IMG/VR virus record: IMGVR_UViG_2534682160_000009
Strand: one strand, 5' to 3'
Length of the DNA: 6,544 bases
From: a virus
Lineage: Duplodnaviria > Heunggongvirae > Uroviricota > Caudoviricetes
Of this stretch, positions 1 to 3,000 are shown in pieces; within the stretch, counting starts at the first letter, position 1, and every line of letters starts with the position of its first letter. Made by a program: the position numbers.

Positions 1-3000
1 ATGAGCAGCGCAATTCATAGACTTAGCGACACTCTTTTACGAAAATTAAGCGGATCACCAACCACAAAAAACGCCTTTTTTAATGACGGTGGCAATCTTA
101 GCGTAAGACATTCCACCAGCGGCCTGTTAACCTGGTATTTCACTTACAGGGCCGGAACTGGTAGGCAGGTATCACCGGAACGTCTGAGACTGGGCAATTA
201 TCCCGATCTGAGCCTGAAAGCAGCCAGGGAAAAAGCAGCACAGTGTCGCGCCTGGCTGGCTGAGGGGAAAAATCCGCGCTATGAGCTTAATCGTGCTGTA
301 CAGGATGCGTTAGCCCCCGTGACAGTTAAGGAAGCGCTCACTTACTGGCTTGAATCGTATGCAAAGGAAAAGCGCACTGACTACGAATCACTGAAAAGCC
401 GGATCAATAAACACATAATCAGCCAGATTGGCGCTTTGCCGTTGGAAAAATGCGAGCTACGGCACTGGTTGGCATGTTTTGACCAGATGGCAAAGCGAAG
501 CCCAGTATCTGCCGGATTTTTGCTACAGGTATGCAAACAGGCGCTTAAGTACTGCCGAAAACGACGATACGCAATCAGCAACGTTCTTGATGATATGGTT
601 GTCGGTGATGTGGGAAAAAAAGCAGAAGTGAGCGAGCGCGTACTAACAAATAAGGAGCTTGGGGAATTACTCCGCGCCCTGGATGACAAAATATTCCCGC
701 CATACTACAGCGCCCTAATTCGCCTCCTGATTGTTTTTGGATGCCGTACCACTGAGCTAAGGCGCTCTGAGGTGCAGGAGTGGGATTTTAAAGAAATGCT
801 CTGGACAGTACCGAAGGAGCACAGCAAAACGAAGGTCGCCATATTCAGGCCAATACCGGAAAGCATTTTGCCGTTCGTCACGCAACTGGTGGAGCAGAAC
901 AGACACACAGGCTTATTGCTTGGTGAACTGAAAGGACAATCTTCGGTAGCAGAGTACGGAAGAACAGCGCACAGACGAATTAATCAAGCCCCCTGGACGT
1001 TACACGATATCCGGCACACATTTACAACCATGCTGAACGATTTAGGCGTGGAGCCGCATATTGTCGAGCAGCTTACAGCCCACCAGATGCCAGGGATGCA
1101 ACGAGTCTATAACCACTCCCGCTACCTTGATGCAAAACGTGATGCTCTTAATCTATGGGTAGACCGTCTCGAGCTTCTCCAGAACAATGATGAAAAAATC
1201 GTTGTTATGACCCCGCGAATTTACCCCCAAAATTCTTGACAAATTACGGCTGTTTTTCTTTAAGAGATTACAGCCGTGAATAGATCTTAGAATATCGGGG
1301 AATATCTGCAAATATCTTCTCTTTATATGTGTCAACTATCGAAAAAAATTGAAATGTCTTCTTCTGAGTTCTTATTCTCTGTTTCTTGATTGTTCCAACA
1401 CCTGATGGTTTATCTATTTGTTTTTAATGAGTTAATTCAGGTGTCATGCCAAATGACGACATTTTTTGTTGCGTCGCTTAAAAACTCGTGACACGATTTT
1501 AAACACTAACGAGCTTCTACGAACCTTAGCGAACAAAGCCTTTAGCATGGTTGTGTTTTTAATTTAAGAGGTGAAAAAGAATCTAAGTAATATCCGATCT
1601 CATATATCTACAGCTAAGAGAAAAGTTTATATACGTAATTTTTATGTAGGTTTTTGTATGCGTGAAATAAATGAAGATCGCGTAATCCGTGAGGATGAAT
1701 GTCGTAAGTTAACTGGAGTGTGTCGCACTACACGCTACGAACTGGAGAAAAAAGGGAGCTTTCCGTCTCGCCGTAATCTTGGTGGGCGTTCTGTAGGTTG
1801 GCTGCTGTCCGAGGTTATGGAATGGGTTAAAAGCCGGGATCGCATTAATTCAGGTAAGGCAGCGTAAAGGGGAGCATATGACACATAAAACAAAGGCGAC
1901 CCGGATCAGAGGTCGCCAATGGGAAAACACTAAACATAAGCCCGAACATCATAGCGATTTGCTGGTTGGTGGGCAATGTGCTCAGTGTGCTGGCTTGCTG
2001 GTGGACTATCAGCCTTTTGGTTCTATGCCTTCTTTGCGTAGCTTGTCACGACAGGCATTTTTAACCCATGAACTGAAATTACCAGGCCCAGCAACTTCGT
2101 TAATTTGTTGCAACAATGTGTCTTCGAAGCGGATGTTTTTCTTTGTGCTGCCAGAGCGATCAAATTTTGGTTTCTCATTTTTTCTTGCATTGGTACGTAC
2201 CACCGTTATAAACTGAAACCCAATGGTACGTACCATATTGAAGATACGCAACCATTAAATACAGCGAAGCCCCGCAGTGGTGGAACACTCGCAGGGCTTC
2301 TAACCACCAACGATAACGAGAGTATCGAGGTAGCTATGTTAAATCATACCACACACCCGCAAGGGCGGGACTCGCACAACCTGAATAAATTCACCTGGCG
2401 CTTTATGCAGTGCCTGACAGACAGCATTGCAATATTCACCGTTACCGCTGCCACTGAGCGCGAAGCCCGCGCCCAGCTGCCGCGCGCACATCTGATTTTT
2501 GTCGCCCGCATTCGCCAGGGGGTGAGTCATGCATAAAATACCCTTTGATGTTCTTATTCATTCTGAAAACGCATTAATTAAAGCGCGCGAAATGAATGCG
2601 TTGTTAGGCAAATTAATTGAAGTGCCGGAATCTGGCGAAGAATCTTCGTCATTAATGTTTGCAGCCATTCAGACATTACTATCGCCTGTTATTGATGAAC
2701 TGGATAAGGCAATGGATATTATCGAAAATAATAAAGCGCCCCACACCGGAGAATAAAAATAATGAAACTTAAATATTCTGGCTTAACTGCCAGTGGCAAA
2801 ACTCGCACTAAATTCATGCGCGGTGATATTTACCGCGACCAGTACGGCGGCACGGTAATGATTAAGGGCGTGGAGGAACGGCGCGTAACTTACCGCCGTG
2901 AAGGTTACGAATATGATTGCGTGATGCCCGTTTATCAGTTCCGGCGTGATTTTTCTCTGGTACAGACCGCGCCGCATAACGTGCCCACCAGCAACGCCAG

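What the first reader, a model, noticed from the sequence alone, without database searches (positions are those of the whole stretch)
2009..2251. Convergent minus-strand ribbon-helix-helix gene whose 5' end is built over twin palindromic operators
The only minus-strand gene in the window encodes a ribbon-helix-helix-like protein and has its own terminator (1881-1917). Its 5' end overlaps two perfect TGGTACGTACCA palindromes spaced three helical turns apart: both ATG 2236 and GTG 2203 fall inside or next to a palindrome. This looks like an autoregulated repressor guarding the rightward replication operon. A dedicated repressor is not part of the usual AlpA-centred model for Gram-negative satellites, so it may be an extra control layer. 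The overlapping + strand ORF 1878..2216 has a strong ribosome-binding site, so strand assignment is unsettled.
Basis: partly seen in the sequence, partly recalled or inferred. Interest (0 to 1): 0.55.

Follow-up and report, generated by a model that had tools for sequence, protein, structure and literature searches.

The report
Satellite repressor gene with twin operators
The minus-strand gene belongs to an uncharacterised small DNA-binding protein family (YlcI/YnfO). Its two palindromic sites sit on the promoter of the satellite's killing and replication operon. In this window one missing base breaks the gene, and the opposite strand carries a P4-type read-through reading frame broken by the same missing base.

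Summary
The sequence features are real, but the gene model needs correcting. The two TGGTACGTACCA palindromes (2191-2202, 2224-2235), the minus-strand ORF and its terminator are all present.

The ORF is a YlcI/YnfO (DUF3950) family gene. About 60 relatives start at an ATG that abuts palindrome 1 (window 2190-2188). Here a 1-nt deletion in an A7 run (2178-2183) puts that ATG out of frame. The reading in which the coding 5' end lies over the palindromes is therefore an artefact.

Profile links and a two-helix model support a ribbon-helix-helix fold. The twin boxes keep their position and 33-34 bp spacing across Gammaproteobacteria. Their central bases change together with the predicted DNA-reading residues. 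Box 1 lies in the spacer of a conserved rightward promoter, and box 2 just downstream of it. An autoregulated repressor is well supported by comparison but untested.

The + strand is also maintained. Once repaired, 1878-2536 is one 219-codon ORF coupled to alpA and in frame with the Icd/Kil-like gene. This is the bacteriophage P4 eta/kil layout.

A conserved antisense RNA resembling SymR covers the Icd-like start.

The same repressor, operator and RNA module also guards SymE-like toxin genes in chromosomal islets.

The parts
1658..1867 (+). alpA (P4 vis-like) gene, 69 aa. It is the upstream gene to which the eta-like ORF is coupled.
   Evidence: Pfam Phage_AlpA E=4.8e-16. PGAP annotates a 210-nt HTH regulator at the same place in L001. 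Coordinates checked.
1878..2536 (+). eta-like long ORF, 219 codons once the missing T is restored. Its ATG lies 10 nt after the alpA stop, behind AAGGGGAG. It runs antisense through ylcI, both boxes and the leader, and is in frame with the Icd/Kil-like gene. In this window it is split into 1878-2216 and 2105-2536.
   Evidence: A stop-free frame of 166-528 codons is present in 28 of 28 Enterobacterales satellite loci, with a per-locus chance of <1e-4 to 0.025. The same layout is read directly from P4 and described in PMC10111431.
1885..1917 (-). Intrinsic-terminator-like hairpin plus T-tract, about 90 nt downstream of the ylcI stop. There is no T-tract on the + strand.
   Evidence: 8-bp stem with 6 GC pairs, tail TTTGTTTTAT.
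2009..2188 (-). Conserved body of the YlcI/YnfO (DUF3950) gene: predicted beta-strand KNIRFE, helix A, GPGNFS loop and helix B.
   Evidence: Pfam PF13132 32.3 bits (cut-off 25) and NCBIfam NF041551 30.2 bits (cut-off 30). dN/dS is 0.06-0.08. AlphaFold model. RHH links.
2178..2183 (.). Homopolymer (T6 on the + strand, A6 on the minus strand) that is one base shorter than in the closest relatives. The -1 frameshift breaks both ylcI and the eta-like ORF.
   Evidence: Direct comparison with L001, L057 and L058.
2188..2190 (-). Family start codon of ylcI (ATG of ATGCAA), out of frame in this window. Its complement, TTGCAT at 2185-2190, is the -35 of the rightward promoter.
2191..2202 (.). Box 1 (O1), TGGTACGTACCA. 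It lies in the spacer of promoter P_R and abuts the ylcI start codon.
2185..2214 (+). Predicted rightward promoter P_R (analogue of P4 P_LE, internal to the eta-like ORF). The -35 is TTGCAT at 2185-2190. The -10 is TATAAA at 2207-2212 or TAAACT at 2209-2214.
   Evidence: It is the best sigma-70-like site at the same position in 40 of 54 loci. Coordinates. No transcription data are available.
2224..2235 (.). Box 2 (O2), TGGTACGTACCA. It lies about +5 to +17 of P_R and overlaps the -10 of the predicted ylcI promoter.
2223..2251 (-). Predicted ylcI promoter P_L: -35 TTGCGT (2251-2246), 17-nt spacer, -10 TACCAT (2228-2223, inside box 2).
   Evidence: TTGCnT-17-TACCAT is the best leftward site in 20 satellite loci. 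It is weak or absent in the SymE-type group. This is an inference.
2255..2336 (-). Predicted antisense small RNA of about 80 nt resembling SymR. Stem-loop 1 (2311-2327) lies next to the anti-Shine-Dalgarno sequence. Stem-loop 2 (2266-2300) is followed by a U-rich tail. The RNA is complementary to the Shine-Dalgarno sequence and start of the Icd-like gene.
   Evidence: 33-sequence alignment: 98.6% of cells paired against 34-47% in slid controls, 93 compensatory cells, and about 85 G-U cells that pair only on the minus strand. T-tract after the hairpin on the minus strand only. Rfam symR matches in relatives are below threshold (33-37 bits). No Rfam match in the window itself.
2343..2351 (-). 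Extended -10-like element TGGTATGAT inside the first codons of the Icd-like gene; candidate promoter of the antisense RNA.
   Evidence: Conserved as TG(G/A)TATGAT or GGGTATGAT among satellites. By-eye match only.
2336..2536 (+). Icd-like / P4 Kil-like small gene (66 aa), the first gene translated from P_R, nested in frame in the eta-like ORF.
   Evidence: NCBIfam NF033153 E=1.3e-14; P4 Kil matches the same model at 1.6e-21. SD GAGG lies at 2327-2330.

Best explanation
The window is the regulatory region of an E. coli satellite of the PICI / capsid-forming PICI type, built on the P4 plan. The gene order is int, alpA, the regulatory region, then DUF4222, primase and ssb.

**Repressor.** The minus-strand gene encodes a ~60-aa ribbon-helix-helix protein of the YlcI/YnfO (DUF3950) family. 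I infer that its dimers bind two 12-bp dyad boxes (TGGTA-NN-TACCA), 33 bp apart.
- Box 1 fills the spacer of a rightward promoter, P_R. Its -35 is the complement of the ylcI start codon.
- Box 2 lies just downstream of the P_R start site and over the -10 of ylcI's own promoter.
- Occupancy would therefore shut off P_R and autoregulate ylcI. P_R drives the Kil/Icd-like gene and the replication genes.

**Second layer (inferred).** An antisense RNA of about 80 nt resembling SymR, co-oriented with ylcI, pairs with the Shine-Dalgarno sequence and start of the Icd-like gene. It would block translation of leaky transcripts.

**Escape (inferred, by analogy with P4).** When the helper phage activates the alpA operon, transcription reads on from alpA. 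The long eta-like ORF, coupled to alpA, is translated across ylcI, the boxes and the leader. This would express the operon independently of P_R, shield the leader from the antisense RNA, and interfere with convergent ylcI transcription.

**This copy.** One missing base in a homopolymer breaks both ylcI and the eta-like ORF. It is either a sequencing error or a very recent inactivating mutation.

**Shown:** sequence features, family membership, purifying selection, conservation and covariation of the boxes, RNA covariation, and maintenance of the long ORF.

**Inferred:** DNA binding, repression, promoter activity, existence of the RNA, and the switch logic.
For: **Family and selection.**
- Family membership.
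- Purifying selection acts on the minus frame. Codon-position diversity is 0.21 / 0.165 / 0.507, and dN/dS is 0.06-0.08 against 0.2 for the antisense frame.

**Ribbon-helix-helix fold.**
- The close family aligns to P0111 with hhalign probability 96.7% and E=3.7e-10.
- P0111 matches Pfam RHH_1 at 2.3e-6. It also matches PDB MazE6 (E=0.043) and CopG (E=0.13), weakly but in register.
- Other members match the NikA-like, DUF6290 and HicB families.
- The AlphaFold model has an extended N-terminus and helices at 23-33 and 38-53, with mean pLDDT 71.

**Operators.**
- The twin boxes hold fixed positions in about 60 loci, from Enterobacterales to Alteromonas.
- There is no other copy within about 3 kb.
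- The box centre changes with the strand triplet that aligns to CopG positions 4-6. CopG Arg4 and Thr6 contact bases, which I cite from memory.
  - KKN and RKQ go with CG.
  - VKN goes with TA.
  - MKN goes with GG, both in satellites and in SymE-type islets.
  - MKH goes with GT.
  - RRT goes with TTCG(C/A)A.
  - RKI goes with TTCATA.
  - RKN goes with TACACA.
- The boxes persist in SymE-type islets that have no alpA, primase or integrase within about 3 kb. YlcI is therefore the only constant protein partner.

**Promoter.** The P_R site is positionally conserved in 40 of 54 loci.

**Eta/kil layout.**, and PMC10111431.

**Antisense RNA.**
Against: - There is no experimental evidence for binding, repression, transcription starts or the RNA. 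Nothing on YlcI function exists in the searchable literature.
- The covariation rests on about 8 classes that are phylogenetically clustered. RKQ and KKN share one box type, so the triplet is not the only determinant.
- ylcI has no clear Shine-Dalgarno sequence, because box 1 occupies that space.
- The ylcI promoter P_L is not recognisable in the SymE-type group.
- The Rfam symR model does not match the window itself.
- In this window the gene is frameshifted, so the mechanism may not operate in this copy.
Confidence: 0.6

Rival explanations
1. Toxin-control module rather than satellite immunity. YlcI plus the antisense RNA exist mainly to keep a toxic small gene silent (Icd/Kil-like here, SymE-like elsewhere), like a type I toxin-antitoxin locus with an added transcriptional repressor. 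Control of replication genes in satellites would be a by-product of operon structure. This overlaps with the best explanation and differs in what is selected for.
For: The same ylcI, twin-box and antisense-RNA cassette sits next to SymE_toxin genes in about 30 chromosomal islets. tRNA-Sec lies nearby in the three that were scanned, and no satellite genes were found within about 3 kb. P4 Kil and the window protein match the 'host cell division inhibitor Icd-like' model. Relatives match Rfam symR below threshold.
Against: In 28 of 28 Enterobacterales satellites the cassette lies exactly between alpA and the replication operon, with the eta-like ORF maintained across it. This argues for integration into the satellite's life-cycle switch. 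The SymE-type islets could be decayed satellites.
Confidence: 0.2
2. The palindromes act as RNA rather than as protein-binding DNA. The two boxes are mutually complementary and could form a 12-bp stem with a 21-nt loop in the ylcI 5' UTR or in the read-through eta-like mRNA, controlling translation or stability.
For: the repeat finder reports the boxes as a perfect inverted pair (I10). Box 1 occupies the place of the ylcI ribosome-binding site.
Against: In several lineages the boxes are non-palindromic and in direct orientation, so the two copies cannot pair perfectly. Examples are GGTAGTTACC twice in L010, L013 and L015, and GTGGTACACACCCA twice in L065 and L066. Position and spacing are kept all the same. 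The predicted start sites fall between the boxes, so neither transcript would carry both (inference).
Confidence: 0.07
3. Another protein binds the boxes, such as AlpA, the Eta/Icd-like product or a host factor. YlcI would then have a different role.
For: No binding data exist. AlpA-family proteins are DNA-binding regulators encoded next door.
Against: The boxes are present in islets with no alpA and with SymE in place of Icd. Box variation tracks the YlcI strand residues, including the same MKN-GG pairing in two different genomic contexts.
Confidence: 0.08
4. Only the + strand codes. On this view the minus ORF is a shadow of the eta-like ORF, in the antisense frame whose third positions coincide.
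For: The two frames share third codon positions, so codon periodicity alone cannot separate them (reasoned). The + frame is open in all satellites.
Against: dN/dS is lowest in the minus frame, 0.06-0.08 against 0.2. The minus product matches curated families whose members also occur without any eta-like ORF, in lambda, DLP12, Qin and the SymE-type islets. The + frame has stops in 15 of 26 SymE-type loci, while ylcI stays intact in most of them. The + product matches nothing upstream of the Kil-like part.
Confidence: 0.03

Closest known systems
YlcI/YnfO family (Pfam DUF3950 PF13132; NCBIfam NF041551), including E. coli K-12 YlcI (DLP12), YnfO (Qin) and a lambda right-end ORF
   Same: Same protein family by curated HMMs. 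It shares the NIRF strand, the GNFS(A/S)WV motif and the ACR..L helix. RefSeq already annotates the 60-aa gene in hundreds of E. coli genomes.
   Different: No function is recorded for the family. The lambdoid members sit next to cos and nohD, have an ordinary ribosome-binding site and lack the twin TGGTA..TACCA boxes. The satellite subfamily has the fixed layout of ATG abutting box 1, the twin boxes, the antisense RNA and a toxic-gene partner.
Bacteriophage P4 immunity and left-operon region (vis, eta/kil nested genes, internal promoter P_LE, CI RNA)
   Same: An alpA/vis gene is followed by a long ORF that starts at the vis/alpA stop. That ORF contains an internal promoter and ends as a nested 65-66-aa Kil/Icd-like gene, followed by the primase operon (PMC10111431).
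   Different: No C4/CI family match was found in the window. P4 has no YlcI homologue. In place of the sense-strand CI RNA, this lineage has a protein repressor gene embedded antisense in the eta-like ORF, plus an antisense RNA.
Phage P22 immI region (ribbon-helix-helix repressors Arc and Mnt, overlapping promoters Pant/Pmnt, sar antisense RNA). Recalled from memory, not tested here.
   Same: Small ribbon-helix-helix repressors act on dyad operators placed within and next to a promoter that overlaps an oppositely oriented promoter. A small antisense RNA acts on the ribosome-binding site of the first gene.
   Different: No detectable sequence relationship beyond the fold (hhalign against Arc gave E=0.009 over 19 columns). 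The target genes and the host element differ.
symE/symR type I toxin-antitoxin locus of E. coli
   Same: A short antisense RNA starts just inside the target's coding region and covers its ribosome-binding site. Relatives of this module control genuine SymE-family genes and match Rfam symR over the whole model.
   Different: All Rfam scores are below the gathering threshold (33-37 against 61 bits) and there is no match in the window. The target here is Icd/Kil-like, not SymE. K-12 symE is LexA-controlled (from memory), whereas here a ribbon-helix-helix repressor sits at the promoter.
Stl master repressors of Gram-positive PICIs/SaPIs
   Same: A functional analogy only: a satellite-encoded repressor transcribed divergently from the replication operon. 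This comparison is from memory; no homology test against Stl was run.
   Different: Unrelated proteins: Stl is a larger helix-turn-helix-type protein (from memory). Gram-negative PICIs are described as AlpA-controlled, with no repressor mentioned.

Membership tests
YlcI/YnfO family (DUF3950) | Score above the curated HMM cut-offs | tested here: met
   Pfam PF13132 gives 32.3-33 bits against a cut-off of 25. NCBIfam NF041551 gives 30.2 bits against 30, which is marginal.
YlcI/YnfO family (DUF3950) | Intact ORF from the family's start codon | tested here: not met
   The family ATG (2190-2188) is out of frame because of a 1-nt deletion in the A-run. The gene is a member by descent but disrupted, or mis-sequenced, in this window.
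Ribbon-helix-helix (Arc/MetJ/CopG) superfamily | Sequence-profile relationship to recognised ribbon-helix-helix families | tested here: met
   The link is transitive. A2 aligns to P0111 with probability 96.7% and E=3.7e-10. P0111 matches RHH_1 at 2.3e-6 and, more weakly, MazE6 and CopG in register. Direct comparisons are weak.
Ribbon-helix-helix (Arc/MetJ/CopG) superfamily | Strand-helix-helix topology forming an intertwined dimer | tested here: inconclusive
Ribbon-helix-helix (Arc/MetJ/CopG) superfamily | Sequence-specific binding to repeated or dyad operator sites through the beta-ribbon | not testable with these tools
   Only comparative support exists: covariation of the box centre with the strand residues.
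P4-type eta/kil nested-gene regulatory region | Kil/Icd-like small gene as the first gene of the replication operon | tested here: met
   NF033153 matches the window protein at 1.3e-14 and P4 Kil at 1.6e-21.
P4-type eta/kil nested-gene regulatory region | Long in-frame ORF starting at the end of the alpA/vis gene and containing the internal promoter | tested here: met
   Met in 28 of 28 related satellites, and in the window once one base is restored. The P4 ORF was read directly. In the window as given, the ORF is split.
P4-type eta/kil nested-gene regulatory region | CI (C4-family) immunity RNA with seqA/seqC targets | tested here: not met
   No C4 or IsrK match appeared at E<=1 on the window or E<=10 on 2180-2420. 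The structured RNA lies on the opposite strand.
SymR antisense RNA (Rfam RF01809) | Score at or above the Rfam gathering threshold | tested here: not met
   No match in the window. Relatives L045, L046 and L003 score 33-37 bits against a threshold of 61.
SymR antisense RNA (Rfam RF01809) | Conserved structured RNA antisense to the ribosome-binding site and start of the adjacent gene | tested here: met
   Covariation and G-U asymmetry support a structured RNA on the minus strand. A terminator T-tract lies on the minus strand only. Expression is untested.

The most novel reading that the evidence does not exclude
ylcI and the eta-like ORF are a conserved pair of protein-coding genes that overlap antisense, and together they work as a convergent-transcription switch. 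In the quiescent island, YlcI and the antisense RNA resembling SymR provide the 'immunity' function that has been missing for Gram-negative PICIs. On helper infection, read-through from alpA is translated as the Eta-like protein and runs over ylcI, its operators and the RNA's target. This silences the repressor and commits the island to replication. The same cassette has been taken over elsewhere to control SymE-like toxins.
Probability: 0.3. Interest if true: 0.75.

Novelty: new variant of a known kind. Interest (0 to 1): 0.6.

Why it matters
Gram-negative PICIs and capsid-forming PICIs are described as controlled by AlpA. It is not known what keeps their toxic and replication genes silent, or how the helper phage flips the switch.

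A conserved repressor with recognisable, co-evolving operators sits on the replication-operon promoter. Together with an antisense RNA and a P4-type read-through ORF, it gives a concrete model that can be tested by mutation. EcCIEDL933-type islands carry the same YlcI protein (WP_001156588.1).

The work also does three other things.
- It assigns a likely function to an uncharacterised E. coli protein family (YlcI/YnfO, DUF3950).
- It suggests that the PHROG label 'transcriptional repressor' for the Eta/Kil ORF is inherited from the obsolete P4 'cI protein' annotation.
- It shows the cassette reused next to SymE-like toxin genes.

Tried and rejected
**Searches that found nothing useful**
- Rfam search of the whole window, and of 2180-2420 at E<=10, gave no C4/CI, IsrK or symR match, only spurious weak hits.
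- blastn (distant mode) of 1990-2540 and tblastn of the leader plus Icd-like translation against phage records gave no match.
- BLASTP of the window ORF 2105-2536 against the P4 'cI' ORF gave no alignment. The relationship appears only through the NF033153 profile.
- Foldseek against the PDB gave nothing significant. phmmer and the profile search against PDB sequences gave nothing significant directly.
- The first word-indexed homologue search returned only 6 proteins. A profile and the exhaustive representative search were needed.
- Forti et al. 1999 is not held in the library. P4 facts are taken from PMC10111431 and from the P4 sequence itself.

**Ideas considered and dropped**
- Codon-position periodicity cannot decide the strand, because the two frames share third positions. 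I used dN/dS, stop-codon occurrence and family evidence instead.
- The idea that ATG 2236 or GTG 2203 is the true start was dropped. No relative uses these starts, and they are in frame only because of the indel.
- The idea that the 2266-2300 hairpin is a sense-strand leader or CI-like element was dropped. G-U pairs and the T-tract place it on the minus strand.
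Full report
**What the window is.** The window carries these genes:
- a tyrosine integrase (1-1239);
- alpA (1658-1867);
- a small Icd-like gene;
- a DUF4222 gene;
- a D5_N/DUF5906 primase (3058-4812);
- ssb.

Close relatives in complete E. coli genomes have the same order, followed by capsid genes. They are therefore PICI or capsid-forming PICI satellites. 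One example is an O157:H7 island next to cspD.

**Checking the observation.** TGGTACGTACCA occurs exactly twice, at 2191-2202 and 2224-2235. There is no further copy at up to two mismatches, and 0.17 matches are expected by chance. The minus-strand ORF 2009-2251 and a minus-strand terminator-like hairpin at 1917-1895 are present. So the features are there.

**The gene model is wrong in one important respect.**
- The ORF matches Pfam DUF3950 and NCBIfam YlcI/YnfO. RefSeq annotates a 60-aa YlcI/YnfO protein at this position in hundreds of E. coli genomes.
- All relatives start MQ(E/D)K at an ATG that directly abuts box 1. These comprise 54 loci from one genome per species, five E. coli loci and nine further loci.
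- In the window that ATG (2190-2188) is out of frame. The run GAAAAAAAT of the closest relatives is one A shorter here (2178-2183).
- The 75-80-aa reading over the palindromes exists only because of this deletion. It is a singleton from one draft assembly.

**Which strand codes.**
- The + ORF 1878-2216 lies in the antisense frame whose third positions coincide with those of ylcI. Periodicity (0.21 / 0.165 / 0.507) therefore cannot decide.
- dN/dS is 0.06-0.08 for the minus frame and 0.2 for that + frame.
- The minus product belongs to a family that also occurs in lambda, DLP12 and Qin, without any overlapping ORF. ylcI is therefore a real gene.
- The + frame is not noise either. With the missing base restored, 1878-2216 and 2105-2536 fuse into one 219-codon ORF.
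  - It starts 10 nt after the alpA stop.
  - It runs antisense through ylcI, both boxes and the leader.
  - It ends as the Icd-like gene.
- The same stop-free frame (166-528 codons) is present in 28 of 28 Enterobacterales satellite loci. The per-locus chance is <1e-4 to 0.025. In non-satellite relatives it carries stops in 15 of 26 loci.

**The P4 parallel.**
- This is the P4 eta/kil arrangement. In P4, a 198-codon ORF starts at the vis stop codon (ATGA) and ends as Kil.
- P4 Kil and the window protein both match NF033153, at 1.6e-21 and 1.3e-14.
- PMC10111431 summarises the P4 mechanism, citing Forti et al. 1999:
  - eta contains an internal constitutive promoter;
  - Kil is a truncated form of Eta;
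  - eta translation prevents termination.
- Both strands are therefore maintained, and one indel breaks both genes here.

**Fold.**
- The close family aligns to P0111 with 96.7% probability.
- P0111 matches Pfam RHH_1 at 2.3e-6. It also matches MazE6 (E=0.043) and CopG (E=0.13), weakly but in register.
- Other members match the NikA-like, DUF6290 and HicB families.
- The AlphaFold monomer has an extended N-terminus and two helices, with pLDDT 71.
- A ribbon-helix-helix fold is likely but not proven.

**Operators.**
- Box 1 (immediately upstream of the ATG) and box 2 (33-34 bp further upstream) are conserved in place in about 60 loci, from E. coli to Alteromonas.
- The outer GGT...ACC is kept while the centre varies. 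It varies with the three residues before IRF, which align to the positions of CopG that read bases (Arg4 and Thr6, from memory).

| Strand residues | Box centre | Found in |
|---|---|---|
| KKN, RKQ | CG | E. coli and related satellites; a marine metagenome contig |
| VKN | TA | Yersinia satellites |
| MKN | GG | Hafnia and Serratia satellites, and Enterobacter-type islets |
| MKH | GT | Erwinia, Proteus and related satellites |
| RRT | TTCG(C/A)A | Xenorhabdus satellites |
| RKI | TTCATA | a Yersinia satellite |
| RKN | TACACA | Alteromonas-related satellites |

- Non-palindromic boxes occur in either relative orientation. This argues for a protein site rather than an RNA stem.
- The boxes persist where alpA, primase and integrase are absent. 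YlcI is therefore the only constant partner.

**Promoters.**
- In 40 of 54 loci the best sigma-70-like site is TTGCAT, then 16-18 nt, then TAnnnT. Here TTGCAT is the complement of the ylcI ATGCAA, and box 1 fills the spacer.
- Box 2 then lies at about +5 to +17. In satellites it overlaps a TTGCnT-17-TACCAT leftward promoter.
- These are consensus matches, not mapped promoters.

**Antisense RNA.**
- Between box 2 and the Icd-like start lies a conserved two-hairpin element.
- In a 33-sequence alignment, 98.6% of cells pair, against 34-47% in slid controls. There are 93 compensatory cells, and about 85 G-U cells that are valid only on the minus strand.
- The T-tract follows the hairpin on the minus strand only.
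- An extended -10-like element (2351-2343) lies inside the first Icd-like codons.
- Relatives match Rfam symR over the full model, below threshold. The window does not match.

**Wider context.** In about 30 Enterobacter, Citrobacter and Kluyvera-type genomes the divergent partner of ylcI is a SymE-family toxin gene. tRNA-Sec lies nearby in the three loci scanned. The cassette is therefore a portable module that silences a toxic gene.

**Mechanism and verdict.**
- I propose that YlcI represses P_R and itself through the two boxes.
- The antisense RNA blocks translation of leaky Icd-like transcripts.
- Read-through from alpA, translated as the Eta-like protein, bypasses both controls.
- Binding, promoters, the RNA and the switch are all inferences.
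- The searchable literature gives YlcI no function, and the capsid-forming PICI paper mentions no repressor.

Noticed in passing
window 4826-5055: A dense cluster of about 14 short repeats, GGTAGA(C/T)A and its complement T(G/A)TCTACC, in both orientations just downstream of the primase gene. It includes a 39-nt imperfect inverted pair (4884-4922 with 4957-4995). It looks like an iteron-type replication origin. The Rfam 'miRNA' matches there are spurious.
   Followed up: partly
window 2178-2183: A single missing base in a homopolymer breaks two overlapping genes on opposite strands at once (ylcI and the eta-like ORF). The allele is a singleton in the protein collection and is absent from complete E. 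coli genomes, so a sequencing error in a draft assembly is plausible.
   Followed up: yes
L018-L052 (e.g. L021 2574-3147): In Enterobacter, Citrobacter, Kluyvera, Leclercia and related genomes the ylcI, twin-box and antisense-RNA cassette is paired with a SymE-family toxin gene. No satellite genes lie within about 3 kb. tRNA-Sec lies nearby in the three loci scanned (L021, L029, L045). These may be decayed satellites or a stand-alone toxin module.
   Followed up: partly
L034, L039 (start ATGTAA); L028, L056 (box 2 lost or ORF altered); L051: Several SymE-type islets carry disrupted ylcI copies, with a premature stop at codon 2, a missing distal box or an altered ORF. This shows decay of the repressor in some lineages.
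   Followed up: no
L046 2851-2923 (strand opposite to ylcI): A below-threshold Rfam match to the R1162-like plasmid antisense RNA (39 bits against a threshold of 55). It lies on the sense strand of the same leader that matches symR on the other strand, and shares the CUAACCACCA...GGAG...AUGGCUAC motif.
   Followed up: no
window 2105-2536; P4 L070 8168-8584: PHROG families 6196 and 1743 are labelled 'transcriptional repressor'. The only such label seen at this locus type is the obsolete P4 annotation 'cI gene product (AA 1-137)', which is really the Eta/Kil reading frame. The label is therefore probably misleading for these proteins, but PHROG membership of the P4 ORF was not checked.
   Followed up: partly
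proteins P0027, P0033, P0039, P0047, P0058 and similar (Vibrio and marine): Longer family members (115-145 aa) carry the YlcI-like N-terminus fused to a C-terminal segment that matches HTH_7/HTH_23-type helix-turn-helix models. This suggests a two-domain DNA-binding variant.
   Followed up: no
L060 8252-8834 (E. coli K-12 DLP12) and lambda-type phages: K-12 ylcI is divergent from nohD across the cos region. It has an ordinary ribosome-binding site and no twin TGGTA..TACCA boxes, so the lambdoid branch of the family probably has different targets.
   Followed up: partly
L001 6630-7397: In one close relative an 'ash family' segment and a second Icd-like gene are inserted within the eta-like ORF, lengthening it to 339 codons. 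The region is a hotspot for domain insertion while the reading frame stays open.
   Followed up: no
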